Source: Naegleria gruberi (taxonomy: Eukaryota). From it: 16,246 nucleotides of DNA. The stretch is from the NCBI GenBank assembly GCA_000004985.1, contig GG738971.1; one strand, written 5' to 3'. The first letter of the stretch is position 1; each line of letters starts with the position of its first letter. Below, one piece after another: positions 805 through 16,246 of the stretch. Position numbers and translations under genes: made by a program. The notes beneath the pieces were generated by a model, which was not told the DNA's origin, did no database searches, and worked only from the letters and a program-made list of their open reading frames with translations.

Positions 805-1120
805 ATGCAACAACAACATTCTTTGAAAGTTTCCATAATAAAATGTACTGACCTGCCTAAAGTTGACTTGTTGGGATCATGTGATGCGTATGTGCAGGTG
901 TGGGTTGCTCACTCAGATCCAAACAAATTTAAACAAGCACAGACTGATAATGAGGAGGGAATTAAACAGACAAGAGTGATTACTAGTTTAAATCCAGAAT
1001 TTAATGAACAATTTCAATTCAAATTTCCTCAAGTCAATTCTGGTATGGAGAAGAAAGATCCAATGGATAAATATTTGGTTGTGAGAGTGGTGGATAAGAA
1101 TGCCATATTGAAGGATGAAG
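805..1120 (+). CDS. Exon 1 of a gene encoding a protein with an N-terminal C2 domain. The start codon is at 805, and the exon ends in phase 1 immediately before a GT donor.
   Basis: The ATG at 805 sits in an A-rich context. The translation MQQQHSLKVSIIKCTDLPKVDLLGSCDAYVQVWV...TRVITSLNPEFNEQFQFKF...KYLVVRVVDKNAILKDE matches the C2-domain consensus (L.V.V..A..L...D..G.SDPYV.V ... T.v.....P.wNE.F.F ... L...V.D.d). A GT follows at 1121. Confidence 0.7.
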
Positions 1121-1172
1121 GTTCGTTTAAATTTATATATATTGGAAAGTATTGATTGACTTGTTTCTCAAG
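1121..1172 (+). other. A 52-nt spliceosomal intron (GTTCGT...TTGTTTCTCAAG) within the C2-domain gene.
   Basis: GT/AG boundaries with a pyrimidine-rich 3' end. Removing it joins ...AILKDE to VIGFVMIQFFGLNLKVGKPLRRTYPLIDAKSGSIELCFEAVP in frame, restoring the conserved C2 DE.IG / G.I.L.L.F.P strands. Unspliced, the frame hits a stop at 1153. Confidence 0.65.
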
Positions 1173-1299
1173 TTATTGGATTTGTAATGATACAATTTTT
1201 TGGATTGAATTTAAAGGTGGGAAAACCATTGAGAAGAACCTACCCATTAATTGATGCCAAATCTGGAAGTATTGAATTGTGTTTTGAAGCAGTTCCAAG
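1173..1299 (+). CDS. Exon 2 (partial) of the C2-domain gene. It runs into the N-masked block, so the 3' end is not visible.
   Basis: The open frame continues from the splice junction to the edge of the N run. The encoded strand matches the C-terminal beta-strands of a C2 domain. Confidence 0.65.
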
Positions 1300-6460: not shown

Positions 6461-8452
6461 ATTGTTCAAGTTATAATAATGTTTATTGGTCTGTTAGTTT
6501 ATTGCAAATGAGGGAAGATTCTGAAATTCATGGAAATATTTTGGCCACAGAAGTGACAGCTTCGAATTCAAAAATTTATGGAACTCTGATTATACCAGAT
6601 TCGGCAACGATGGTAACTATATTCGAAACTACTCAGTTCATGAATTTTACTAATTGGGATCCTTATTCACCATTTGTTGATTCGAAATGTATTTCTTCTC
6701 AATCAGTAGTTTCGTCTAATGTTTCTTCCAATTCGACTGTGGTTACAAACAGTTCAGTTTCAGTCAATCAAACTATTATTAATTCCAACTCGTCAATGAT
6801 TAAGAACAATACTGTTTACAATAGTACAGTATTAAATAATTCCACATTGAATAATTATTCATCAATAGTTAACACTACTCAAGTTTCTAATAATATTACA
6901 GTTGGTAATTCAACAACTTTATCAAATTCTACAAACGTATTGAATAATTCCTCAATGAGTGGTAATTCGACCTTTTCCAATTCTACTAATTATGGAAATG
7001 GCTCACTTTCGAATACAACACAAGTGGTTTCTAATAATGTTACAGTTGGTAATTCAACAACTTTATCAAATTCTACAAAAGTAATGAATAATTCCTCAAT
7101 GAATGGTAATTCAACATTTTCCAATTCTACTAATTATGGAAATGGCTCACTTTCGAATACAACACAGGTAGTTTCTAATAATAATACAGTTGGTAATTCT
7201 TCAAATTTATCAAATACTACGATTGTACTGAATAATTCCTCAATGGAAAGTAATTCTTCACAAACAATTTCCAATTCCACTGTTGCCAATACTACAAATA
7301 TTCACGGAAATGACTCACTGTCGAATACAACGCAAAATGTTGCTAATAATAATACACTAGGAAATTCCACACAATTACTGAATATTTCAATGAACAGCAA
7401 TAGTACAAGCAATTATTCCAGTATTACCAACTCTACTAATTATGGAAATGAATCATTTGTGAATTCAACAAATAATTCAGTGAACAGCACTACTAATTCT
7501 ACTTTTATGGGAAATAGTTCAAATATTTCACAACAAGTGAATACAACCACAAATTCATCAATTGGAGTTGTTGATAACGAAACGACTATTCTTATGAATG
7601 AAACAAATGTTTCGAATAATAGCATTGTTGAAACTAATCAAACTCTGAATAATTCACAAATTGTTAACGAAACATCAACAGAATCCAATAATAATGGAAC
7701 AATTCAAAACAACTCTTCCCAAACTATTATTTCCAATAATTCATCCATTGTTAACGAAACTTCCAATACTTCTAATACTACAGAACTAATTTCTAATAAC
7801 ACAATAAGTGATTCAAATAACACATTTATCAATCAGTCAACTGTGGAACATCAAAATTCAACACTTAATCAAACTCTAATTAACAATCAAACTACTTTTG
7901 GAAATAGTTCAGTAATTGAAGTTCAAAACCAGGTCAATCAAACATCAAATATCTCTAACAGCACAAACAACACTTTAATTATTAATTCAACAATTATTTC
8001 TAACAATACAATTTCCAATTATAGTAATTCAGTATTACCAAGTAATGTCACAAATAATTCGACATTATCAATCAATAATACAATTCTAAATAATCAAAGC
8101 ACTGTAAATTCAACAACATCTAACCTGAATAATGAAACATTCAATAATCAGAATTCCAGTTTAAATAATTGTGACAGACATGTCAATTGCTCAAATCATG
8201 GCGATTGTAATTCAGAAGGACAATGCATATGTTCTTCAAATTATGAAGAAGGTTTCTGGTCTGGAACTAAGTGTGAATTTTGTGCGATTAACTTTTATGG
8301 AAAATTATGTAATACTAAAATTGTTGGTCCAGCTTTGATTTCACCAGATTTTACAGGCGTTACATTTATATTACATTCTGCACAGATGAATGATTCAATT
8401 CCTTGTGAAAAGATTATCAATCCACTTGATTTATCTATTTTTGGAAGTAAGC
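6461..8452 (+). CDS. Internal fragment, open at both ends into masked sequence, of a secreted or surface glycoprotein. It is Asn/Ser/Thr-rich and hyper-sequon-dense, with tandem repeats and a C-terminal EGF-like module.
   Basis: A 664-codon open frame without stops from the mask edge at 6461 to the mask edge at 8452. The track's start at 6502 is a TTG; the first ATG is at 6508 and there is no signal peptide, so the real 5' end is probably upstream in the masked region. There are dozens of N-x-S/T sequons (NST, NSS, NTT, NIS, NVT, NQT, NET and others), repeated about 48-aa units, and an 8-Cys module CDRHVNCSNHGDCNSEGQCICSSNYEEGFWSGTKCEFCAINFYGKLC. Confidence 0.75.
6883..7338 (+). repeat. Coding tandem repeat of three nearly identical 144-bp (48-aa) units starting at 6883, 7027 and 7171. 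More degenerate copies lie upstream (about 6790) and downstream (7339 to about 7510).
   Basis: Units 1 and 2 differ at about 8 of 144 nt. Unit 3 is about 80% identical. The encoded unit is VSNN[IVN]TVGNSTTLSNSTNVLNNSSM[SN]GNSTFSNSTNYGNGSLSNTTQV. Confidence 0.85.
8170..8310 (+). other. EGF-like module with eight cysteines (laminin/tenascin-type spacing) at the C-terminal end of the visible glycoprotein fragment.
   Basis: The cysteine pattern C-x5-C-x5-C-x5-C-x-C-x13-C-x2-C-x8-C, with the conserved G and aromatic positions (HGDC, GQCIC, GFWSG, YG..C). Confidence 0.7.
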
Positions 8453-11400
8453 NNNNNNNNNNNNNNNNNNNNNNNNNNNNNNNNNNNNNNNNNNNNNNNN
8501 NNNNNNNNNNNNNNNNNNNNNNNNNNNNNNNNNNNNNNNNNNNNNNNNNNNNNNNNNNNNNNNNNNNNNNNNNNNNNNNNNNNNNNNNNNNNNNNNNNNN
8601 NNNNNNNNNNNNNNNNNNNNNNNNNNNNNNNNNNNNNNNNNNNNNNNNNNNNNNNNNNNNNNNNNNNNNNNNNNNNNNNNNNNNNNNNNNNNNNNNNNNN
8701 NNNNNNNNNNNNNNNNNNNNNNNNNNNNNNNNNNNNNNNNNNNNNNNNNNNNNNNNNNNNNNNNNNNNNNNNNNNNNNNNNNNNNNNNNNNNNNNNNNNN
8801 NNNNNNNNNNNNNNNNNNNNNNNNNNNNNNNNNNNNNNNNNNNNNNNNNNNNNNNNNNNNNNNNNNNNNNNNNNNNNNNNNNNNNNNNNNNNNNNNNNNN
8901 NNNNNNNNNNNNNNNNNNNNNNNNNNNNNNNNNNNNNNNNNNNNNNNNNNNNNNNNNNNNNNNNNNNNNNNNNNNNNNNNNNNNNNNNNNNNNNNNNNNN
9001 NNNNNNNNNNNNNNNNNNNNNNNNNNNNNNNNNNNNNNNNNNNNNNNNNNNNNNNNNNNNNNNNNNNNNNNNNNNNNNNNNNNNNNNNNNNNNNNNNNNN
9101 NNNNNNNNNNNNNNNNNNNNNNNNNNNNNNNNNNNNNNNNNNNNNNNNNNNNNNNNNNNNNNNNNNNNNNNNNNNNNNNNNNNNNNNNNNNNNNNNNNNN
9201 NNNNNNNNNNNNNNNNNNNNNNNNNNNNNNNNNNNNNNNNNNNNNNNNNNNNNNNNNNNNNNNNNNNNNNNNNNNNNNNNNNNNNNNNNNNNNNNNNNNN
9301 NNNNNNNNNNNNNNNNNNNNNNNNNNNNNNNNNNNNNNNNNNNNNNNNNNNNNNNNNNNNNNNNNNNNNNNNNNNNNNNNNNNNNNNNNNNNNNNNNNNN
9401 NNNNNNNNNNNNNNNNNNNNNNNNNNNNNNNNNNNNNNNNNNNNNNNNNNNNNNNNNNNNNNNNNNNNNNNNNNNNNNNNNNNNNNNNNNNNNNNNNNNN
9501 NNNNNNNNNNNNNNNNNNNNNNNNNNNNNNNNNNNNNNNNNNNNNNNNNNNNNNNNNNNNNNNNNNNNNNNNNNNNNNNNNNNNNNNNNNNNNNNNNNNN
9601 NNNNNNNNNNNNNNNNNNNNNNNNNNNNNNNNNNNNNNNNNNNNNNNNNNNNNNNNNNNNNNNNNNNNNNNNNNNNNNNNNNNNNNNNNNNNNNNNNNNN
9701 NNNNNNNNNNNNNNNNNNNNNNNNNNNNNNNNNNNNNNNNNNNNNNNNNNNNNNNNNNNNNNNNNNNNNNNNNNNNNNNNNNNNNNNNNNNNNNNNNNNN
9801 NNNNNNNNNNNNNNNNNNNNNNNNNNNNNNNNNNNNNNNNNNNNNNNNNNNNNNNNNNNNNNNNNNNNNNNNNNNNNNNNNNNNNNNNNNNNNNNNNNNN
9901 NNNNNNNNNNNNNNNNNNNNNNNNNNNNNNNNNNNNNNNNNNNNNNNNNNNNNNNNNNNNNNNNNNNNNNNNNNNNNNNNNNNNNNNNNNNNNNNNNNNN
10001 NNNNNNNNNNNNNNNNNNNNNNNNNNNNNNNNNNNNNNNNNNNNNNNNNNNNNNNNNNNNNNNNNNNNNNNNNNNNNNNNNNNNNNNNNNNNNNNNNNNN
10101 NNNNNNNNNNNNNNNNNNNNNNNNNNNNNNNNNNNNNNNNNNNNNNNNNNNNNNNNNNNNNNNNNNNNNNNNNNNNNNNNNNNNNNNNNNNNNNNNNNNN
10201 NNNNNNNNNNNNNNNNNNNNNNNNNNNNNNNNNNNNNNNNNNNNNNNNNNNNNNNNNNNNNNNNNNNNNNNNNNNNNNNNNNNNNNNNNNNNNNNNNNNN
10301 NNNNNNNNNNNNNNNNNNNNNNNNNNNNNNNNNNNNNNNNNNNNNNNNNNNNNNNNNNNNNNNNNNNNNNNNNNNNNNNNNNNNNNNNNNNNNNNNNNNN
10401 NNNNNNNNNNNNNNNNNNNNNNNNNNNNNNNNNNNNNNNNNNNNNNNNNNNNNNNNNNNNNNNNNNNNNNNNNNNNNNNNNNNNNNNNNNNNNNNNNNNN
10501 NNNNNNNNNNNNNNNNNNNNNNNNNNNNNNNNNNNNNNNNNNNNNNNNNNNNNNNNNNNNNNNNNNNNNNNNNNNNNNNNNNNNNNNNNNNNNNNNNNNN
10601 NNNNNNNNNNNNNNNNNNNNNNNNNNNNNNNNNNNNNNNNNNNNNNNNNNNNNNNNNNNNNNNNNNNNNNNNNNNNNNNNNNNNNNNNNNNNNNNNNNNN
10701 NNNNNNNNNNNNNNNNNNNNNNNNNNNNNNNNNNNNNNNNNNNNNNNNNNNNNNNNNNNNNNNNNNNNNNNNNNNNNNNNNNNNNNNNNNNNNNNNNNNN
10801 NNNNNNNNNNNNNNNNNNNNNNNNNNNNNNNNNNNNNNNNNNNNNNNNNNNNNNNNNNNNNNNNNNNNNNNNNNNNNNNNNNNNNNNNNNNNNNNNNNNN
10901 NNNNNNNNNNNNNNNNNNNNNNNNNNNNNNNNNNNNNNNNNNNNNNNNNNNNNNNNNNNNNNNNNNNNNNNNNNNNNNNNNNNNNNNNNNNNNNNNNNNN
11001 NNNNNNNNNNNNNNNNNNNNNNNNNNNNNNNNNNNNNNNNNNNNNNNNNNNNNNNNNNNNNNNNNNNNNNNNNNNNNNNNNNNNNNNNNNNNNNNNNNNN
11101 NNNNNNNNNNNNNNNNNNNNNNNNNNNNNNNNNNNNNNNNNNNNNNNNNNNNNNNNNNNNNNNNNNNNNNNNNNNNNNNNNNNNNNNNNNNNNNNNNNNN
11201 NNNNNNNNNNNNNNNNNNNNNNNNNNNNNNNNNNNNNNNNNNNNNNNNNNNNNNNNNNNNNNNNNNNNNNNNNNNNNNNNNNNNNNNNNNNNNNNNNNNN
11301 NNNNNNNNNNNNNNNNNNNNNNNNNNNNNNNNNNNNNNNNNNNNNNNNNNNNNNNNNNNNNNNNNNNNNNNNNNNNNNNNNNNNNNNNNNNNNNNNNNNN

Positions 11401-11876
11401 NNNNNNNNNNNNNNNNNNNNNNNNNNNNNNNNNNNNNNNNNNNNNNNNNNNNNNNNNNNNNNNNNNNNNNNNNNNNNNNNNNNNNNNNNNNNNNNNNNNN
11501 NNNNNNNNNNNNNNNNNNNNNNNNNNNNNNNNNNNNNNNNNNNNNNNNNNNNNNNNNNNNNNNNNNNNNNNNNNNNNNNNNNNNNNNNNNNNNNNNNNNN
11601 NNNNNNNNNNNNNNNNNNNNNNNNNNNNNNNNNNNNNNNNNNNNNNNNNNNNNNNNNNNNNNNNNNNNNNNNNNNNNNNNNNNNNNNNNNNNNNNNNNNN
11701 NNNNNNNNNNNNNNNNNNNNNNNNNNNNNNNNNNNNNNNNNNNNNNNNNNNNNNNNNNNNNNNNNNNNNNNNNNNNNNNNNNNNNNNNNNNNNNNNNNNN
11801 NNNNNNNNNNNNNNNNNNNNNNNNNNNNNNNNNNNNNNNNNNNNNNNNNNNNNNNNNNNNNNNNNNNNNNNNNNNN
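8453..11876. other. N-masked block or assembly gap of 3424 nt. It hides the 3' part of the glycoprotein gene and the 3' two-thirds of the NirK gene.
   Basis: A contiguous run of n characters. Confidence 1.
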
Positions 11877-12623
11877 ATACGAATGTTCCATTAATTTTGG
11901 ATCATCATCTGATGGTTCACAATAGAATTCACTTTGCATGACATAGAATTCCTTATCTACTTTTGGTAATCCCTCTTCTGGCTCAACTAACATTAATCCA
12001 TACATGCCATTACTTATGTGTGAAGGAACTGGACCTGCAGCACAGTGATAGATAAATAAACCTGAAGTTAATAATTTGAAAAATCCTGTTTTTTCTTCAT
12101 CTTTTTCAGCCAATAACATTTCTGCACCTCCTCCTGGTCCTGTCACACAGTGAAAATCAATATTGTGAGCCATACCGGTTTCGTCCAAGTTTAGGTAATT
12201 GACTTGCATGACATCTCCAACTCTTGCTCTGATAAATGGTCCAGGAACTGTTCCATTAAATGTCCAATATGGATACTTGTACTGTTTGCTGATTGGTTTC
12301 ACTTCAATTGTGGTATCTAGATTAACAACTAATTGAACTGGATAATCACGGTCAATTGGTGGAGGAATTCCAGGAGCTTTTGTTAAAATTGCTTCAACAA
12401 CTGGCAACTCCAAATTTAATTCAGGAGCTTTCTTGAATTTCTTCATCATATTTTCAGGAAACAAACTATGTTTCTTTTGTGTTTCTTGTGCTTCAAGTAA
12501 ACTATCACATTGGTATTTGTAGTATTGATAAACACCTGTTCCAACAGCACAGGTTAGACCTAGGGATAATGCAATGTCAAAAGTCTTTGGTTTGACAGTT
12601 CTTAGTCTGTGGAACAGTTTCAT
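11877..12623 (-). CDS. nirK: Copper-containing nitrite reductase (NirK, NO-forming). This is the 5' portion only: the N-terminal targeting/anchor extension plus cupredoxin domain I. Domain II lies in masked sequence.
   Basis: The ATG is at 12623-12621 on the minus strand. The translation contains the diagnostic NirK motifs WTFNGTVPGP, HNIDFH (T1Cu His and T2Cu His), YHCAAGPVPSHISNGMYG (His-Cys, His at +9 and Met at +5, which are the T2/T1 ligands) and KEFYVMQSEFY. These align with bacterial NirK (TFNGSVPGP / HNIDFHAATGALGGGA / [24 protein letters not shown] / KIYYVGEQDFY). The first roughly 90 aa (MKLFHRLRTVKPK + hydrophobic FDIALSLGLTCAVGTGVY...) have no bacterial counterpart. Confidence 0.9.
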
Positions 12624-12717
12624 TAGTGTTGTATTGTTATTTTTTAATTGAAATGTTGAATAAGACTTTTTTTATGATTCTTTGAATTTCCATTTGTCCT
12701 CAAACATAATCCCATTA

Positions 12718-12785
12718 CTGTGGTTACGCAATGAAGTGCAAGCAATTCTACAATGAAATGCAAGCAATTATTTTTTGAACTGCAA
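12718..12785. repeat. Left terminal inverted repeat (68 bp). It contains TGCAAGCAATT subrepeats at 12737-12747 and 12759-12769, and a degenerate third copy at 12781-12791.
   Basis: Its reverse complement equals 15859-15926 at 68 of 68 positions, checked base by base. Confidence 0.9.
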
Positions 12786-12959
12786 CGAATAATTTAATGA
12801 ATTGAAAGTTTCTTGAACCACAATTCTTAAAATAGATCAAAGAGAAGTCACACTGTAAGATCAAGCTGTAGTTCTGCTTGTTTCGAATATTGATAATGAA
12901 TTTGTTTATTATATAAGATATTTTGTATTGTTATTAAGATGATTGATCACTCTTCATGT

Positions 12960-15722
12960 TCATTGAATTTTCTTTCCGAAAATTGAATCCTCCCATGACT
13001 CATTAAATAATTCATCTAATTCTTCGTCATAATCGCCAAGCTCAATTTTAGAGCTCTTCTTGGGTTCAGATTGAAAACCTTCTGATTCCGAAAGTGGGCT
13101 TTGTGGTTCAAATTCTACTACATGTAAATGTTGCAATCTAGCAACAAGTATAGCTCTGTAATTTGAAATAGAAAATGGTTTGGTCATAATATCGACGGCA
13201 TCAGATAGTGAAAATCCTGCTGAAAGAAAATCCATTAGTAATACACAATAATCACCACAATGATTTCCATCCACTTGAATTTTTTTTTGTAATGTTTTTC
13301 GAACAGTCTTTGGTTTTACAATAAATGATGGCAACATTTCAAATAATTCACTAGTCTCTGATTCTATCACTGAAAAATCCTTAGCGAAAGAATCAAAAAG
13401 AAACCAATCAGTGGATTGACAATCATAGATTAGTAAGTACCAGTGTAATGATCTTGCCACAGGAAAAATTATAAATCCTTTTGATGTAAATTTCATACTC
13501 TTTGGTAAGTTTGTTTCTATGAATTTTTTGGATTGGTTAGTAACTCTTTGAGAGAAATCAGACGGTATGTATTGTAAATATTGTGAGCTGATTTTGGAAA
13601 AACAAATTCCAAATATATCAAAAGTATTTCCAGGTAAGAATACAGTGTCATCTTTGATAGTCTCCAATGCCTCAGTAGATAAAGTGATTGAACAAGCAAT
13701 TGTTTCTGTTGAAAGAACGTACAATTGTAGATTGGCAGCATTTTGTTGGATGTTATAGTTAAATTCTGTTTTGTTTTGTATGTGAAGTATTATTTTAGAT
13801 ATTTGTTCTACCTGTTTTTGGTCAAAATTTTCTTTCATGGAATCACTATCAATCCAAGGATTGTTTACATCATCTAAGATGGGATCTTGATCTAATTTCT
13901 CATCTGTCTCTACCTTAACTGATGGTGTAGGTAGTTCTACATAGAATTGACCAATACACATAGGATTAAATTCTCTGATATATAAATCATACAAATCATT
14001 ATTCATTTTCAGTGAAGCTCTGACATACTTCAAGTATTCCTCTTCTGAATCATAATTCCAAATATCCATTAAACATTTTCTAAAACTGTTTACAATCACA
14101 TCTGGATTCATGTTAGAAATAATCTGCTCAAATGCTGCATTTCTTGATTTTCTATCAGAATTAGAATTATTCTTTTTCCAATCAGCTAATTCTCTTTTTG
14201 CATATCTGAAACACATATTATCCAATGGTGATTGATGGTGCCCACCTACAGGAAGTAAAATGTTAATTCTATTATGTTGTTTCAAAATCTTTTGAACTGA
14301 TTTACACTTATGATGAGAGAGATTATCCCATAATAAAATGTCTCCTTCTTTTGAATTAGGAATATAAACTTTTTCAACCCATTGCTCAATATGTTCAATA
14401 TGAACACCAGCAATTTTTTCCTCAACAGTTACCTTATTACCATTAATAGTTGATTTCTTTCCTGGCACTGACTCAACAATAGACACTGGTAATACACCTC
14501 CTTCTGCCGTTACAGCAACTAAAAAAGTATCCTTAATATCATCAGCCAATTGTAAAACAACTGCATCATCGTCCTTGATTGGAGTATTTGTTCTTTCCGT
14601 CGCCTTAGTATTTGTTCCAGTTTCATCAAAAACCACAATTTTACTTCTATCAATGGATTTTAAATTTCTAAACATTATTGCTGCATAGAAGCAATAATAA
14701 TAGTAGGTTCTATATAATTGCTCATAAGCTGTTTCAATTCTTTCTCTCTTGGTAATTGTTGTTTTGATCTTCCTTTTATAAAGAAACTTCTTGGAAAATT
14801 TGGAAATATAATCTACTGAAGGTGTTTTCTTTAATCCTGCAACTTCCTTCATTATTTCTCCAAGTCTTATATTACTAACTTGTTTTTTCTCACTCCGTTC
14901 CTTACGAGTAATATCAATAACCTGTAAAATTTGGTCTTTCAATAATAATGGAGGTGGGTGACCACGTTCAACCTTTAATGTTAGTTCATTCCTCTTGCAT
15001 GCCGATAAATATCTGCTAAATTGTGAAGGTGAGATATTATTTTGTTTAGCAAATTCCTGTTGTGATCCACGGTCGGGTGTTGAATATTGTTCTTTATACT
15101 TCTCAACAAGTTTAATTTGTTCTTCTCTTGTTTTTTGAACATAACCAACTTTTCTTTTGTTTTTAAACCCTATCAATACTATTTTATCATCAGGATTTTC
15201 CTTTTTTTCTGTCTCCTCCAGGTTTACCAGTTTTGCTTTCTTTGCTTGACTTTCATTGTATGTTTCTTGATTCCGTTCAACAATTAATAGGGCTTTTTTT
15301 TTGATGTTGTCTTCGAATGACTCATCTCTTTCATCCGTCTCTTCCTCAACAGAAGAACAAATTCTAGTTACCAATTTTGCTACCAGAGCATCTTTTCTAA
15401 GATTACCTCCTGTCTCTCCAAATTCACTCTTCAAAAACTCCTTCAAAAACTTGACATTTTTCATTGTCAATTGATCACGGATTGCCTCTTCCACATTCTC
15501 AAACTTTCGTTTTGTTCCTTTTTTTAGCTTCTTTGGTTTTTCTTCTTTTTTCTTGCCTGGTGTTTTTTCATCTTTCTTTTTACTGGGTGTGTTATCTGGT
15601 TGATCTTGTGTACAGGTCCATGAAGGAACTTGAGATACTGAAGGTAGCAAATCTATTAAATTGCTATAGCTGGAGAAGCTTTGTGGTGAAGTGTCATAGC
15701 TACTCGATTGCTTGTTTGACAT
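12960..15722 (-). CDS. Transposase fused to a Ulp1-like protease. From the N terminus: a basic NLS-like region, CENP-B/pogo-type HTH domains, a DDE_1 catalytic core, and a C-terminal Ulp1/C48 cysteine peptidase domain. It is 920 aa long and ends with a TGA stop.
   Basis: Residues 47-73 are KKKDEKTPGKKKEEKPKKLKKGTKRK. HTH-like segments lie around aa 195-300. The DDE_1 motifs are VVFDETG (D366), ILLWDNLSHH (D466) and QSPLDNMCFRYAK (D501), which gives D-D-35-D spacing and the pogo DNxxH / QPLD signatures. The Ulp1 motifs are SLHWYLLIYD (H760), WFLFDS (D777) and KIQVDGNHCGDYC (Q816, C822), with His-Asp spacing of 17 and Gln-Cys spacing of 6 as in Ulp1. Confidence 0.9.
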   Translation of the reverse strand: MSNKQSSSYDTSPQSFSSYSNLIDLLPSVSQVPSWTCTQDQPDNTPSKKKDEKTPGKKKEEKPKKLKKGTKRKFENVEEAIRDQLTMKNVKFLKEFLKSEFGETGGNLRKDALVAKLVTRICSSVEEETDERDESFEDNIKKKALLIVERNQETYNESQAKKAKLVNLEETEKKENPDDKIVLIGFKNKRKVGYVQKTREEQIKLVEKYKEQYSTPDRGSQQEFAKQNNISPSQFSRYLSACKRNELTLKVERGHPPPLLLKDQILQVIDITRKERSEKKQVSNIRLGEIMKEVAGLKKTPSVDYISKFSKKFLYKRKIKTTITKRERIETAYEQLYRTYYYYCFYAAIMFRNLKSIDRSKIVVFDETGTNTKATERTNTPIKDDDAVVLQLADDIKDTFLVAVTAEGGVLPVSIVESVPGKKSTINGNKVTVEEKIAGVHIEHIEQWVEKVYIPNSKEGDILLWDNLSHHKCKSVQKILKQHNRINILLPVGGHHQSPLDNMCFRYAKRELADWKKNNSNSDRKSRNAAFEQIISNMNPDVIVNSFRKCLMDIWNYDSEEEYLKYVRASLKMNNDLYDLYIREFNPMCIGQFYVELPTPSVKVETDEKLDQDPILDDVNNPWIDSDSMKENFDQKQVEQISKIILHIQNKTEFNYNIQQNAANLQLYVLSTETIACSITLSTEALETIKDDTVFLPGNTFDIFGICFSKISSQYLQYIPSDFSQRVTNQSKKFIETNLPKSMKFTSKGFIIFPVARSLHWYLLIYDCQSTDWFLFDSFAKDFSVIESETSELFEMLPSFIVKPKTVRKTLQKKIQVDGNHCGDYCVLLMDFLSAGFSLSDAVDIMTKPFSISNYRAILVARLQHLHVVEFEPQSPLSESEGFQSEPKKSSKIELGDYDEELDELFNESWEDSIFGKKIQ
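13113..13625 (-). other. Ulp1 / SUMO-protease-like cysteine peptidase domain (C48 family) at the transposase C-terminus.
   Basis: The catalytic His-Asp-(Gln)-Cys arrangement HWYLL...FLFDS...QVDGNHCGDYC has canonical spacing and is followed by an acidic tail. Confidence 0.75.
14088..14690 (-). other. DDE_1 (pogo/Tigger/Fot1-type) catalytic domain of the transposase.
   Basis: The D366 / D466 / D501 triad lies within the characteristic motifs DETG, LLxDNxxxH and LPxxxxxxxSPLD. Confidence 0.8.
14823..15140 (-). other. Helix-turn-helix DNA-binding region of the transposase, of the CENP-B/pogo N-terminal type (two HTH units).
   Basis: Segments QQEFAKQNNISPSQFSRYLSACKR and HPPPLLLKDQILQVIDITRKERSEKKQVSNIRLGEIMKEV resemble psq/HTH_Tnp_Tc5-like helices. 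This is assigned by pattern, not by alignment. Confidence 0.5.
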
Positions 15723-15797
15723 TTTATAAATTTATTGCTTCTTCTGCTGATTGGAAGTTTTGATGTGTGTTTTGCAAGTTTCTTGATCAAAGTGGAA

Positions 15798-15804
15798 ATT
15801 TATA
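15798..15804 (-). promoter_or_regulatory. Candidate TATA box (TATAAAT on the minus strand) about 76-82 nt upstream of the transposase ATG, inside the element.
   Basis: The motif appears on visual inspection in the 136-bp region between the right TIR and the ATG. This region is AT-rich, so specificity is low. Confidence 0.2.
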
Positions 15805-15858
15805 TTTAGACTTTCTTGCAGTTCGTCAGCAAGTAATTGTACTACATTGTAGAATTGC

Positions 15859-15926
15859 TTGCAGTTCAAAAAATAATTGCTTGCATTTCATTGTAGAATT
15901 GCTTGCACTTCATTGCGTAACCACAG
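15859..15926. repeat. Right terminal inverted repeat (68 bp). It contains AATTGCTTGCA subrepeats at 15853-15863, 15875-15885 and 15897-15907, which is 22-bp phasing.
   Basis: It is a perfect reverse complement of 12718-12785. The internal 19-bp CATTGTAGAATTGCTTGCA occurs at 15845-15863 and 15889-15907. Confidence 0.9.
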
Positions 15927-16246
15927 TAGTACAGAGAACGGCTGTTTTTTAAAATATATAAAAAAGGTTCTGAGCGATGGATTATGATTTATTGGATTAT
16001 GAATTGATATTTAGAGTATTTGGATAATTGGATGTTGCTCATTGTTAAGTTCAGTTTAATTTTTGATTAATTTGAATTCAAAAAATTGGCCAAGTCTCCA
16101 GGGAATCGATCTCGTAGGATTCTGGTGTTGTTGGCTTGTTGTTTATTCAATTCAATGACAAACTGTATGGGGTTCACATAAAAAATTCCCAGAGATGGGT
16201 TGAGCTTTGCTTAATTGCTTGTGCATGTAATGAATAGTTACTGAAA

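What the first reader, a model, noticed from the sequence alone, without database searches (positions are those of the whole stretch)
6461..8452. Hyper-N-glycosylation-type mucin-like protein: a sequon-saturated Asn/Ser/Thr domain built from 144-bp tandem repeats and capped by an 8-Cys EGF module
About 500 consecutive residues are made almost entirely of N, S, T, V, I, Q and G, with an N-x-S/T sequon roughly every 4-6 residues. Three units are about 94% identical at the DNA level, which indicates recent expansion or concerted evolution and likely allelic copy-number variation. The domain ends abruptly in a cysteine-rich EGF/laminin-type module followed by a different, more hydrophobic domain. 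Such architecture is typical of cell-surface adhesion or coat glycoproteins in amoebozoan-like protists. The extreme sequon density is itself unusual and suggests a heavily glycan-shielded stalk.
Basis: seen in the sequence. Interest (0 to 1): 0.5.

Follow-up and report, generated by a model that had tools for sequence, protein, structure and literature searches.

The report
Sequon-packed stalk of Naegleria surface receptor
This stretch encodes a roughly 490-residue spacer, crammed with N-glycosylation sites, in the outer part of a very large, uncharacterised single-pass membrane protein of the amoeboflagellate Naegleria gruberi; its site density is unusual, but it is a variant of the familiar sugar-coated stalk.

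Summary
Window 6463-8451 (+) is one open frame of 663 codons; the other five frames carry 30-89 stops. Residues 77-569 (6691-8169) are 64% Asn/Ser/Thr. They hold 92 N-x-S/T sequons, against 48 +/- 5 in composition-matched shuffles, while the reverse motif sits at chance (43). Only two 144-bp units are 94% identical, not three.

The window is Naegleria gruberi. The fragment is 97% identical to XP_002669085 (2641 aa, "predicted protein"). That protein has a signal-peptide-like N-terminus, many teneurin-type EGFs, a REJ domain, a GPS-like motif, one transmembrane helix and a cytosolic tail. It lacks exactly two of the 144-bp units, so copy number differs between the two sequences.

Four N. gruberi paralogues carry a sequon-rich stalk of 45-247 aa at the same position, just before the same 8-Cys EGF. 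One has a quite different composition (39 of 40 sites are N-x-T) but the same enrichment.

Best reading: a heavily N-glycosylated, length-variable stalk in a REJ/GPS-family type I surface receptor. Glycosylation itself is inferred, not shown. A folded hexapeptide beta-solenoid is a weaker rival. This is a new variant of a known kind, of moderate interest.

The parts
6463..6690 (+). [quoted passage not shown] It ends in ...FMNFTNWDPYSPFVDSKC. The fold is unknown.
   Evidence: Aligns to P0121 residues 979-1054. The only Pfam hit is a weak Ice_binding/DUF3494 match, E=0.11.
6691..8169 (+). Sequon-saturated stalk of 493 aa. It holds 92 N-x-S/T sites (53 NxT, 39 NxS), and hydrophobic residues recur with a period of six.
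   Evidence: Composition and shuffle test. Autocorrelation peaks at lags 6, 12, 18, 24 and 30. P0121 has 73 sequons in its 398-aa stalk, against 1.1 per 100 aa in the rest of the protein.
6880..7023 (+). Tandem unit U1 (144 bp, 48 aa, eight hexads).
   Evidence: TRF array 6882-7256, period 144. 94% identical to U2.
7024..7167 (+). Tandem unit U2 (144 bp). It differs from U1 at 10 nt (5 nonsynonymous and 3 synonymous codon changes), and every sequon is kept.
7168..7335 (+). Tandem unit U3 (168 bp; diverged, with 24 extra nt).
   Evidence: 62% ungapped identity to U1. The gapped alignment shows the insertions.
7336..7470 (+). Degenerate unit U4. Beyond it the DNA shows no detectable repeat structure.
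   Evidence: Alignment. Pairwise identity of later 144-nt blocks is 25-43%.
6897..7200 (+). The 288-bp (two-unit) segment that is absent from the reference protein P0121. The junction can lie anywhere in the 17-nt stretch shared by U1 and U3: the deleted segment starts at 6897-6913 and ends at 7184-7200.
   Evidence: A 96-aa gap in the pairwise alignment. None of the 17 possible offsets gives GT..AG ends, so it is not a mis-called intron.
8170..8310 (+). 8-Cys EGF-like (laminin/teneurin-type) module that caps the stalk.
   Evidence: Cys at aa 570, 576, 582, 588, 590, 604, 607 and 616, with a relaxed laminin-EGF pattern match. Pfam EGF families give E 0.003-0.009, below threshold. The module is conserved in P0122, P0123, P0135 and P0143 and in other protists.
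8311..8451 (+). Start of the conserved module after the EGF (NTKIVGPALISPDFTGVTF...) that leads into the PKD-like/REJ region. The continuation is masked in the window.
   Evidence: Query residues 568-658 align to P0122 at E=2e-20. In P0121 the REJ domain (57.5 bits, gathering score 25) starts about 240 aa further on.

Best explanation
The finding is the middle of the ectodomain of a very large type I membrane protein of Naegleria gruberi. It is a haplotype, strain variant or very recent duplicate of NAEGRDRAFT_75960 / XP_002669085.

The inferred layout, from N to C terminus, is:
- signal peptide;
- teneurin-type EGF repeats, interleaved with three copies of an unknown module of about 215 aa;
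- the 493-aa sequon-saturated stalk;
- an 8-Cys EGF;
- a PKD-like/REJ region, then a further EGF;
- a GPS-like motif, one TM helix and a cytosolic tail.

Proposed mechanism (inferred). As the chain enters the ER, oligosaccharyltransferase modifies most of the N-x-S/T sites, which are spaced about 5-6 residues apart. The segment becomes a glycan-sheathed, protease-resistant, hydrated spacer: an N-linked functional analogue of a mucin stalk. It holds the distal EGF and adhesion-type modules away from the membrane-proximal REJ/GPS unit.

Selection appears to act on sequon density and spacing rather than on the exact sequence. Length is changed by gain and loss of 144-bp units through unequal recombination or slippage.

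Shown: the ORF, composition, sequon excess, repeat anatomy, a two-unit difference from the reference protein, the family architecture, and conservation of a sequon-rich stalk at the same position in paralogues.
Inferred: topology of this particular copy (its ends are masked), actual glycan occupancy, and the spacer function.
For: - ORF and composition.
- Sequon excess: 92 against 48 +/- 4.8 (z about 9), with the reverse motif at chance (43).
- Organism: the NirK fragment is 247/249 identical to N. gruberi.
- Full-length relative: P0121 scores E=0 and 1023 bits, is 97% identical over 562 aligned aa, and is annotated as an N. gruberi predicted protein.
- Topology of P0121: hydrophobic N-terminus, one TM at 2522-2540 (Kyte-Doolittle mean 3.14), and the GPS-like CTCVRLTNVFAME just before the TM.
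- Domains of P0121: EGF_Teneurin 124 bits and EGF_2 121 bits; REJ 57.5 bits against a gathering score of 25. Paralogues P0122 and P0123 also hit REJ.
- Paralogue stalks, all directly before the same EGF:
  - P0135: 247 aa, 40 sequons against 12.5 +/- 2.7 expected, 39 of them NxT, Ser only 4%.
  - P0123: 101 aa, 9 against 3.2.
  - P0143: 45 aa, 7 against 4.8.
  - P0122: 8 aa, no sequons.
  Outside the stalks, density is 1.1-2.0 per 100 aa.
- Between the window and P0121, 74 of 77 sequons in aligned columns are shared, with a few gains and losses.
- N. gruberi encodes a near-complete N-glycosylation pathway (PMC4973528).
- A spacing of 5-6 leaves 2-3 residues between sequons. This is at or above the separation reported to allow modification of neighbouring NXS sites; adjacent NXT sites can also be modified (PMC6761772).
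Against: - No experimental evidence of glycosylation or expression was found, and no paper mentions the gene.
- Both ends of the gene are masked in the window, so the signal peptide, TM and REJ are read from a 97%-identical relative, not from this copy.
- Only about 1000 codons separate 8452 from the inferred NirK stop (about 11454), whereas P0121 has 1095 aa after this point. P0121 and NirK also lie on different NEG-M scaffolds. This copy may therefore have a different or shorter 3' part.
- Full occupancy of 92 closely spaced sites is unproven, and 7 pairs are overlapping N-N-S/T sites.
- The hexad periodicity and weak similarity to hexapeptide-repeat proteins allow a folded alternative.
- AlphaFold2 gave no usable model (pLDDT 31 and 36).
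Confidence: 0.7

Rival explanations
1. The segment, or at least its first, tandem-repeat half, folds into a rigid hexapeptide-repeat beta-solenoid (left-handed beta-helix-like) rod. On this view the h-x-N-x-[ST]-x hexad is a structural motif, and its overlap with the sequon is secondary. The stalk would then be short (about 10 nm) and stiff, and only sparsely glycosylated.
For: - Hydrophobic residues recur every 6 positions (autocorrelation 0.42 at lag 6 and 0.33 at lag 12 in the first half).
- V-G-N-S-T-T-type hexads fit the classical [LIV]-[GAED]-x2-[STAV]-x consensus (consensus from my own knowledge).
- The exhaustive phmmer search returned bacterial proteins that match the stalk only, at E 1e-7 to 1e-3. 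These are bona fide Hexapep/LbH/YdcK-solenoid proteins, and they align in hexad register.
- The low-confidence AlphaFold2 models placed short strands at spacings of about 18-24 residues.
Against: - Pfam Hexapep scores only 11.5 bits (gathering score 27) and Pentapeptide_3 19.8 (gathering score 27).
- The register drifts, and periodicity is weak in the second half (0.14 at lag 6).
- Sequon spacings range from 1 to 11.
- Ala, the commonest small inward residue in such helices, is almost absent, while 71% of Asn have S/T at +2.
- In paralogue P0135 the hydrophobic residue sits at N+3 rather than N-2. This puts Glu or other residues at the 'small inward' position, yet N-x-T is kept in 39 of 40 sites.
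- pLDDT of 31-36 means there is no structural support.
- Dense co-translational glycosylation would hinder such a fold (inference).
Confidence: 0.17
2. The segment is a neutral low-complexity expansion. In a genome of about 30% GC, slippage produces Asn/Ser/Thr-rich tracts, and the sequons are a by-product of composition and of amplifying a unit that happened to contain N-x-T.
For: - The region is AT-rich (GC 26-31%).
- There is recent 144-bp tandem duplication.
- Length differs between the window and P0121.
- Individual sequons are gained and lost between the two sequences.
Against: - Composition alone gives 48 +/- 5 sequons, not 92, and the mirror motif is at chance.
- Outside U1-U4 the DNA has no detectable repeat identity (25-43%), yet sequon density is the same in the second half (45 in 239 aa).
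- Ser at the +2 position uses both TCN and AGY codons.
- Paralogue stalks with a different composition show the same or stronger excess, with a strong NxT preference.
- The tract always sits at the same architectural position between Cys-rich modules.
Confidence: 0.08
3. The tandem array or the whole tract is an assembly or annotation artefact, or the ORF is a pseudogene fragment.
For: - P0121 has one unit where the window has three.
- The window's copy may not have room for the full 3' part.
Against: - U1 and U2 differ at 10 of 144 nt, so they are not a duplicated read pile.
- The missing 288 nt cannot be a GT..AG intron.
- There are 663 codons without a stop in 30% GC DNA, while the other frames have 30-89 stops.
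- Identity to an independently assembled protein is 97%.
Confidence: 0.05

Closest known systems
REJ-domain / polycystin-1 family, especially single-pass sea-urchin receptor for egg jelly type proteins
   Same: A large ectodomain with EGF-type modules, a REJ domain (57.5 bits in P0121), a Cys-x-Cys...L-T-x-F GPS-like motif directly before the membrane, and a type I orientation. SpREJ proteins are described as PKD1-family members in PMC1934368.
   Different: There is only one TM-like segment. No PLAT domain and no 11-TM channel-like part were found. The GPS match is below threshold (12.5 bits against 22.5). No member of that family known to me carries a sequon-saturated stalk of about 500 aa.
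Mucin-like (Pro/Thr/Ser) stalks of cell-surface glycoproteins
   Same: A low-complexity, tandem-repeat-derived, length-polymorphic spacer in the ectodomain, and a presumed dense glycan sheath.
   Different: There is essentially no proline (1 of 493). The enriched motif is the N-linked sequon, not bare S/T clusters, and hydrophobic residues appear every sixth position.
Glycan-shielded viral envelope proteins such as HIV-1 gp120
   Same: A sequon excess over compositional expectation, interpreted as selection for N-glycans. gp120 has 5.02 sequons per 100 aa, about 3.8 times the prediction (PMC2920574).
   Different: Here the density is 18.7 per 100 aa over 493 aa, in a non-globular repeat tract rather than on a folded domain. 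The host is a free-living protist.
Bacterial hexapeptide-repeat (left-handed beta-helix) proteins, Pfam PF00132
   Same: Six-residue periodicity with an aliphatic residue at position i and a small or hydroxyl residue at i+4, plus weak direct sequence similarity.
   Different: The segment fails the Pfam threshold, its register is irregular, it has no Ala or Gly signature, and it lies in a secreted eukaryotic context.

Membership tests
REJ-domain (PKD1/suREJ-like) proteins | REJ domain (Pfam PF02010) above the gathering score | tested here: met
   P0121 residues 1743-2097 score 57.5 bits, E=1.2e-15, against a gathering score of 25. Paralogues P0122 and P0123 score 61.2 and 49.5 bits. The test was run on the 97%-identical relative, because the region is masked in the window.
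REJ-domain (PKD1/suREJ-like) proteins | GPS motif immediately before the first TM | tested here: inconclusive
   Pfam GPS scores 12.5 bits against a gathering score of 22.5. However, C-x-C-x2-L-T-N-V-F plus two upstream Cys is conserved in five paralogues, 20-30 aa before the TM.
Polycystin-1 proper | PLAT domain and an 11-TM C-terminal region | tested here: not met
   P0121 has a single TM-like segment and no PLAT hit.
EGF-like domain (laminin/teneurin type) | Match above threshold to an EGF profile with the conserved Cys pattern | tested here: inconclusive
   The cap module alone gives EGF_Teneurin 18.1 bits (threshold 24.3) and EGF_laminin 17.1 (threshold 21). It has 8 Cys and a relaxed laminin-EGF pattern. 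P0121 as a whole gives EGF_Teneurin 124 bits.
Mucin (PTS) domain | Pro/Thr/Ser-rich tandem repeats | tested here: not met
   Pro is 0.2%, while S+T is 37% and N is 26%.
N-glycoprotein | N-x-S/T sequons located in a lumenal or extracellular segment | tested here: met
   There are 92 sequons. The stalk lies between the signal-like N-terminus and the only TM in P0121. Topology is inferred from a hydropathy scan and the N-terminal sequence of P0121.
N-glycoprotein | Demonstrated glycan occupancy | not testable with these tools
   This needs PNGase F or Endo H shift assays, or glycoproteomics.
Hexapeptide-repeat left-handed beta-helix (PF00132) | Profile match above the gathering score and a regular hexad register | tested here: not met
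   Hexapep scores 11.5 bits against 27. The register drifts. AlphaFold2 pLDDT is 31-36.
Type I membrane protein | N-terminal signal peptide plus a single C-terminal TM | tested here: inconclusive
   P0121 meets it by N-terminal sequence and a hydropathy scan for the TM. No dedicated signal-peptide predictor was available, and the ends of the window's own copy are masked.

The most novel reading that the evidence does not exclude
The stalk is a true 'N-linked mucin': a glycan brush of about 500 residues carrying on the order of 60-90 N-glycans, more than three times the sequon density of HIV gp120. Its hexad spacing would be tuned to what oligosaccharyltransferase can fill, and its length would be set by gain and loss of 144-bp units in a REJ/GPS receptor family of a free-living amoeboflagellate. 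An even less expected variant is that the same hexads form a glycosylated left-handed beta-helix rod, a fold not known to me from eukaryotic surface stalks.
Probability: 0.3. Interest if true: 0.6.

Novelty: new variant of a known kind. Interest (0 to 1): 0.4.

Why it matters
If the sites are really occupied, this would be among the most densely N-glycosylated natural polypeptide segments described. It would offer a natural substrate for asking how many neighbouring sequons an oligosaccharyltransferase can fill, and how an N-glycan brush compares physically with O-linked mucins.

It also shows that REJ/GPS-type single-pass receptors exist as a paralogue family in a heterolobosean. The stalk length in this family ranges from 8 to 493 residues and differs by two 144-bp units between two near-identical N. 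gruberi sequences, which suggests rapid tuning of surface architecture.

The gene is already in public databases as an unnamed predicted protein, and heavily glycosylated stalks are a familiar idea, so the advance is incremental rather than categorical.

Tried and rejected
- Word-indexed protein searches found nothing, both with the whole fragment and with only its non-repetitive ends. This was despite P0121 being in that collection.
- An exact 50-mer from the EGF region was absent from the genome, viral and metagenome collections.
- Attempts to unmask the locus by exact-protein look-up all returned 'not on record': the transposase ORF, N. gruberi NirK P0001 and P0121.
- NirK loci of N. lovaniensis (L001) and an environmental Naegleria relative (L002, L003) were fetched. 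tblastn found no trace of this gene there, so there is no usable synteny.
- AlphaFold2 without an alignment gave pLDDT 31.0 on the whole fragment and 35.7 on the tandem part, so no structural conclusion was drawn and no fold search was run.
- I tested whether the 288 nt missing from P0121 could be a mis-called intron. No GT..AG solution exists.
- I tested whether P0121's C-terminal tail could be encoded antisense to the 3' end of NirK, which would explain the tight spacing. No compatible stretch longer than 6 codons was found in any phase.
- An intracellular low-complexity protein was rejected on the topology of P0121.
REJ and PKD-like matches were found instead.
- Literature searches found no paper on this gene, and nothing on REJ-type proteins in Naegleria among the 15 best of 267 papers listed.
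Full report
**What is in the window.** Only three stretches of the window are unmasked: 1-1299, 6461-8452 and 11877-16246. The finding covers the whole middle island. Frame 6463-8451 (+) is open for all 663 codons, while the other five frames contain 30-89 stops. In DNA of about 30% GC, that alone marks it as coding. The ORF runs into masked sequence at both ends, so the island is an internal piece of a larger gene.

**Check of the observation.**
- Between two cysteines (aa 76 and 570) lies a 493-aa tract at window 6691-8169. It is N 26%, S 22%, T 16%, V 8%, I 7%, L 5%, Q 5% and G 3%, with one Pro and two Ala.
- The tract has 92 N-x-S/T sequons (53 NxT, 39 NxS), or 18.7 per 100 aa, with a mean spacing of 5.4. 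The commonest spacings are 6 (27 times) and 5 (19 times).
- Two thousand composition-preserving shuffles give 48.0 +/- 4.8 sequons, with a maximum of 67.
- The mirror motif [ST]-x-N occurs 43 times, which is at chance. 71% of all Asn are in a sequon.
- The excess is therefore real, directional and not explained by composition. For scale, HIV-1 gp120 has 5.02 sequons per 100 aa (PMC2920574).
- Hydrophobic residues recur every six positions, with autocorrelation peaks at 6, 12, 18, 24 and 30. The signal is stronger in the first half. The underlying unit is a hexad, roughly h-x-N-x-[ST]-x.

**The repeats.** TRF finds one array at 6882-7256, with period 144, 2.6 copies and 90% matches.
- In codon phase, U1 (6880-7023) and U2 (7024-7167) differ at 10 of 144 nt. 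There are 5 nonsynonymous and 3 synonymous codon changes, and every sequon is retained.
- U3 is 62% identical without gaps and carries 24 extra nt. U4 is weaker still.
- Further downstream, 144-nt blocks are 25-43% identical, which is background. Yet sequon density is unchanged there, at 45 in 239 aa.
- Ser at the sequon +2 position uses both TCN and AGY codons.
Two units are 94% identical, and they sit in a graded series of older units.

**The cap.** At 8170-8310 lies CDRHVNCSNHGDCNSEGQCICSSNYEEGFWSGTKCEFCAINFYGKLC, with 8 Cys. It matches a laminin-EGF-type pattern if one loop is allowed to be longer. Scored alone, it gives only sub-threshold Pfam hits: EGF_Teneurin 18.1 bits, EGF_laminin 17.1 and EGF_2 16.8.

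**Organism.** The convergent neighbour at 12623-11877 (-) is a copper nitrite reductase. It is 247/249 identical to the N. gruberi protein P0001, and the next best hits are other Naegleria at 72-77%. A C2-domain gene at the left end has a GT..AG intron of about 52 nt. The window is therefore Naegleria gruberi (Heterolobosea). The two NirK substitutions show it is not identical to the reference NEG-M gene models.

**The full-length protein.** The two word-indexed searches found nothing. The exhaustive HMMER search, however, returned P0121 (2641 aa) at E=0 and 1023 bits. P0121 is XP_002669085 / NAEGRDRAFT_75960, a 'predicted protein' of N. gruberi. A global alignment shows 546/562 identical residues (97%). 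Reading P0121 from N to C terminus:
- a hydrophobic N-terminus, MFLIQVICTLVFAHT|C, which looks like a signal peptide;
- many teneurin-type EGFs (EGF_Teneurin 124 bits, EGF_2 121 bits);
- three copies of an unknown module of about 215 aa, the third of which ends at window 6690;
- the stalk (398 aa, 73 sequons), then the 8-Cys EGF;
- a PKD-like/REJ region (REJ 57.5 bits, E=1.2e-15, against a gathering score of 25), then a further EGF;
- a GPS-like motif, SCGDF...DC...CTCVRLTNVFAME (Pfam GPS 12.5 bits, below threshold);
- one strong TM segment at 2522-2540, followed by KLRKNRKK and a tail of about 100 aa.

The stalk therefore lies in the extracellular or lumenal part of a type I membrane protein.

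**Copy number.** P0121 lacks exactly 96 aa, or 288 nt, which is two 144-bp units. Its junction reads QVSNNI|TVGNSSNL, that is, the head of U1 joined to the tail of U3. The breakpoint can lie anywhere in a 17-nt stretch shared by U1 and U3, and none of the 17 solutions has GT..AG ends, so it is not a mis-called intron. Two further small indels (4 and 3 aa) and 10 substitutions lie in the stalk.
- Of the sequons in aligned columns, 74 are shared, 3 are specific to the window and 1 is specific to P0121.
- This is the pattern expected from unequal recombination or slippage in a tract where bulk properties, not individual sites, are maintained.
- Collapse of the array in the older assembly cannot be excluded.
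- Whether P0121 is an allele or a very recent paralogue is open. P0121 and NirK P0001 lie on different NEG-M scaffolds, of 195 kb and 381 kb.
- Only about 1000 codons fit between 8452 and the inferred NirK stop at about 11454, while P0121 has 1095 aa left after this point.
- P0121's tail cannot be encoded antisense to NirK.

**Paralogues.** Other N. gruberi proteins share the architecture: EGFs, the 215-aa module, the 8-Cys EGF, PKD/REJ, the GPS-like motif and one TM. Between the last upstream Cys and the cap EGF they carry a stalk of very different length:

| Protein | Stalk length (aa) | Sequons observed | Expected from shuffles | Note |
|---|---|---|---|---|
| P0122 | 8 | 0 | 0 | no stalk |
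| P0143 | 45 | 7 | 4.8 | |
| P0123 | 101 | 9 | 3.2 | all NxT |
| P0135 | 247 | 40 | 12.5 +/- 2.7 | 39 are NxT |

- P0135's stalk has only 4% Ser, and its sequons read NET, NAT, NVT or NIT. Its hydrophobic residue sits at N+3 instead of N-2, but spacing 6 is again the mode.
- Outside the stalks all these proteins have 1.1-2.0 sequons per 100 aa.
- What is conserved across paralogues is therefore the sequon, its spacing of about 6 residues, and its position in the architecture. Composition and hexad register are not conserved.
- The preference for NxT in three of the four paralogue stalks also fits selection for glycosylation, because OST prefers NXT to NXS sites (PMC6761772).
- N. gruberi has a near-complete N-glycosylation pathway (PMC4973528).
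- With a spacing of 5-6, consecutive sequons are separated by 2-3 residues. This is at or above the separation reported to allow modification of neighbouring NXS sites, and adjacent NXT sites can also be modified (PMC6761772).

**Mechanism proposed.** The tract is modified co-translationally at most sites. It then forms a glycan-sheathed, protease-resistant spacer that projects the distal EGF and adhesion-type modules away from the REJ/GPS unit at the membrane. Its length is adjustable in 48-aa steps. The anatomy and the selection signature are shown; occupancy and spacer function are inferred.

**Rival: a folded hexapeptide solenoid.**
- In favour: the hexads fit the [LIV]-[GAED]-x2-[STAV]-x consensus (my own knowledge). 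The exhaustive search also returned bacterial proteins matching only the stalk at E 1e-7 to 1e-3. These are genuine Hexapep/LbH/YdcK-solenoid proteins, and they align in register.
- Against: Pfam Hexapep reaches only 11.5 bits. The register drifts and weakens in the second half. Ala is virtually absent. P0135's register is incompatible with the consensus while its sequons are kept. AlphaFold2 gave pLDDT 31 and 36.
- I rate this rival at about 0.17. It is not fully exclusive of partial glycosylation.

**Other rivals.** Neutral AT-driven low complexity is contradicted by the shuffle test, the directional asymmetry and the paralogue comparison. An assembly artefact is contradicted by the divergence between U1 and U2 and by the match to an independently assembled protein.

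**Comparison with known systems.**
- The protein is a REJ-domain family member by the Pfam test. It has a GPS-like motif and a single TM, which makes it closest in layout to single-pass sea-urchin REJ-type proteins (PMC1934368 describes that family). It is not polycystin-1 proper, as there is no PLAT domain or 11-TM part.
- The stalk works like a mucin domain but fails the defining Pro/Thr/Ser composition.
- The stalk resembles viral glycan shields in sequon excess, but at more than three times the density and in a non-globular tract.
- I found no paper on this gene, and nothing on REJ-type proteins in Naegleria among the papers listed.

**Verdict.** The feature is a new variant of a known kind: an N-linked, hexad-spaced, length-variable glycan stalk in an uncharacterised REJ/GPS receptor family. 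Interest is moderate (0.4), because the density is striking and testable, while the gene is already deposited and the general concept is familiar.

Noticed in passing
window 12716-15928: An apparently intact DNA transposon. It has 84-nt terminal inverted repeats (12716-12799 and 15845-15928, 93% complementary) built from 22-bp subrepeats. They flank a 920-aa ORF (12960-15722, minus strand) that combines a DDE_3 transposase domain (26.3 bits, gathering score 28.6) with a C-terminal Ulp1/Peptidase_C48-like domain (19.7 bits, gathering score 20.7). The element sits about 90 nt upstream of the NirK start codon.
   Followed up: partly
window 11877-12623 (minus strand; continues into masked sequence to about 11454): A copper-containing nitrite reductase (NirK) gene, 247/249 identical to the N. 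gruberi protein P0001. It is convergent with the glycoprotein gene and very close to, or overlapping, its inferred 3' end.
   Followed up: partly
window 8452-11454 versus P0121 residues 1547-2641: There is room for only about 1000 codons between the end of the island and the NirK stop, but P0121 has 1095 further residues. P0121 and NirK also lie on different NEG-M scaffolds (195 kb and 381 kb), and P0121's tail is not antisense-compatible with NirK. The window's copy may be a distinct haplotype or paralogue with a shorter or different 3' part.
   Followed up: partly
window 6463-6690; P0121 residues about 95-305, 430-640 and 880-1054: An unannotated module of about 215 aa (…NPFQGYS…NCASYNxIYW…IHGT…FSNFSxWDPYQ…) occurs three times in the ectodomain and also appears in paralogues P0123 and P0143. 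The only hint to its nature is a weak Ice_binding/DUF3494 match (E=0.11), which suggests a right-handed beta-helix adhesin-like fold.
   Followed up: partly
window 805-1299: A C2-domain gene (Pfam C2, E=1.9e-14) with a short GT..AG intron of about 52 nt near 1121-1172. It continues into the masked region.
   Followed up: no
P0124, P0127, P0128, P0140 (other protists and metagenomes): The 8-Cys EGF plus the following (I/V)(V/I)GP... module that leads into PKD/REJ is conserved outside Naegleria. It occurs in Papus ankaliazontas transcripts and in environmental eukaryotic contigs, sometimes as several copies per protein.
   Followed up: partly
L001 (N. lovaniensis), L002 and L003 (environmental Naegleria relative): The NirK neighbourhoods in these relatives contain no homologue of the glycoprotein gene or of the transposon. 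The arrangement seen in this window is not conserved there.
   Followed up: yes
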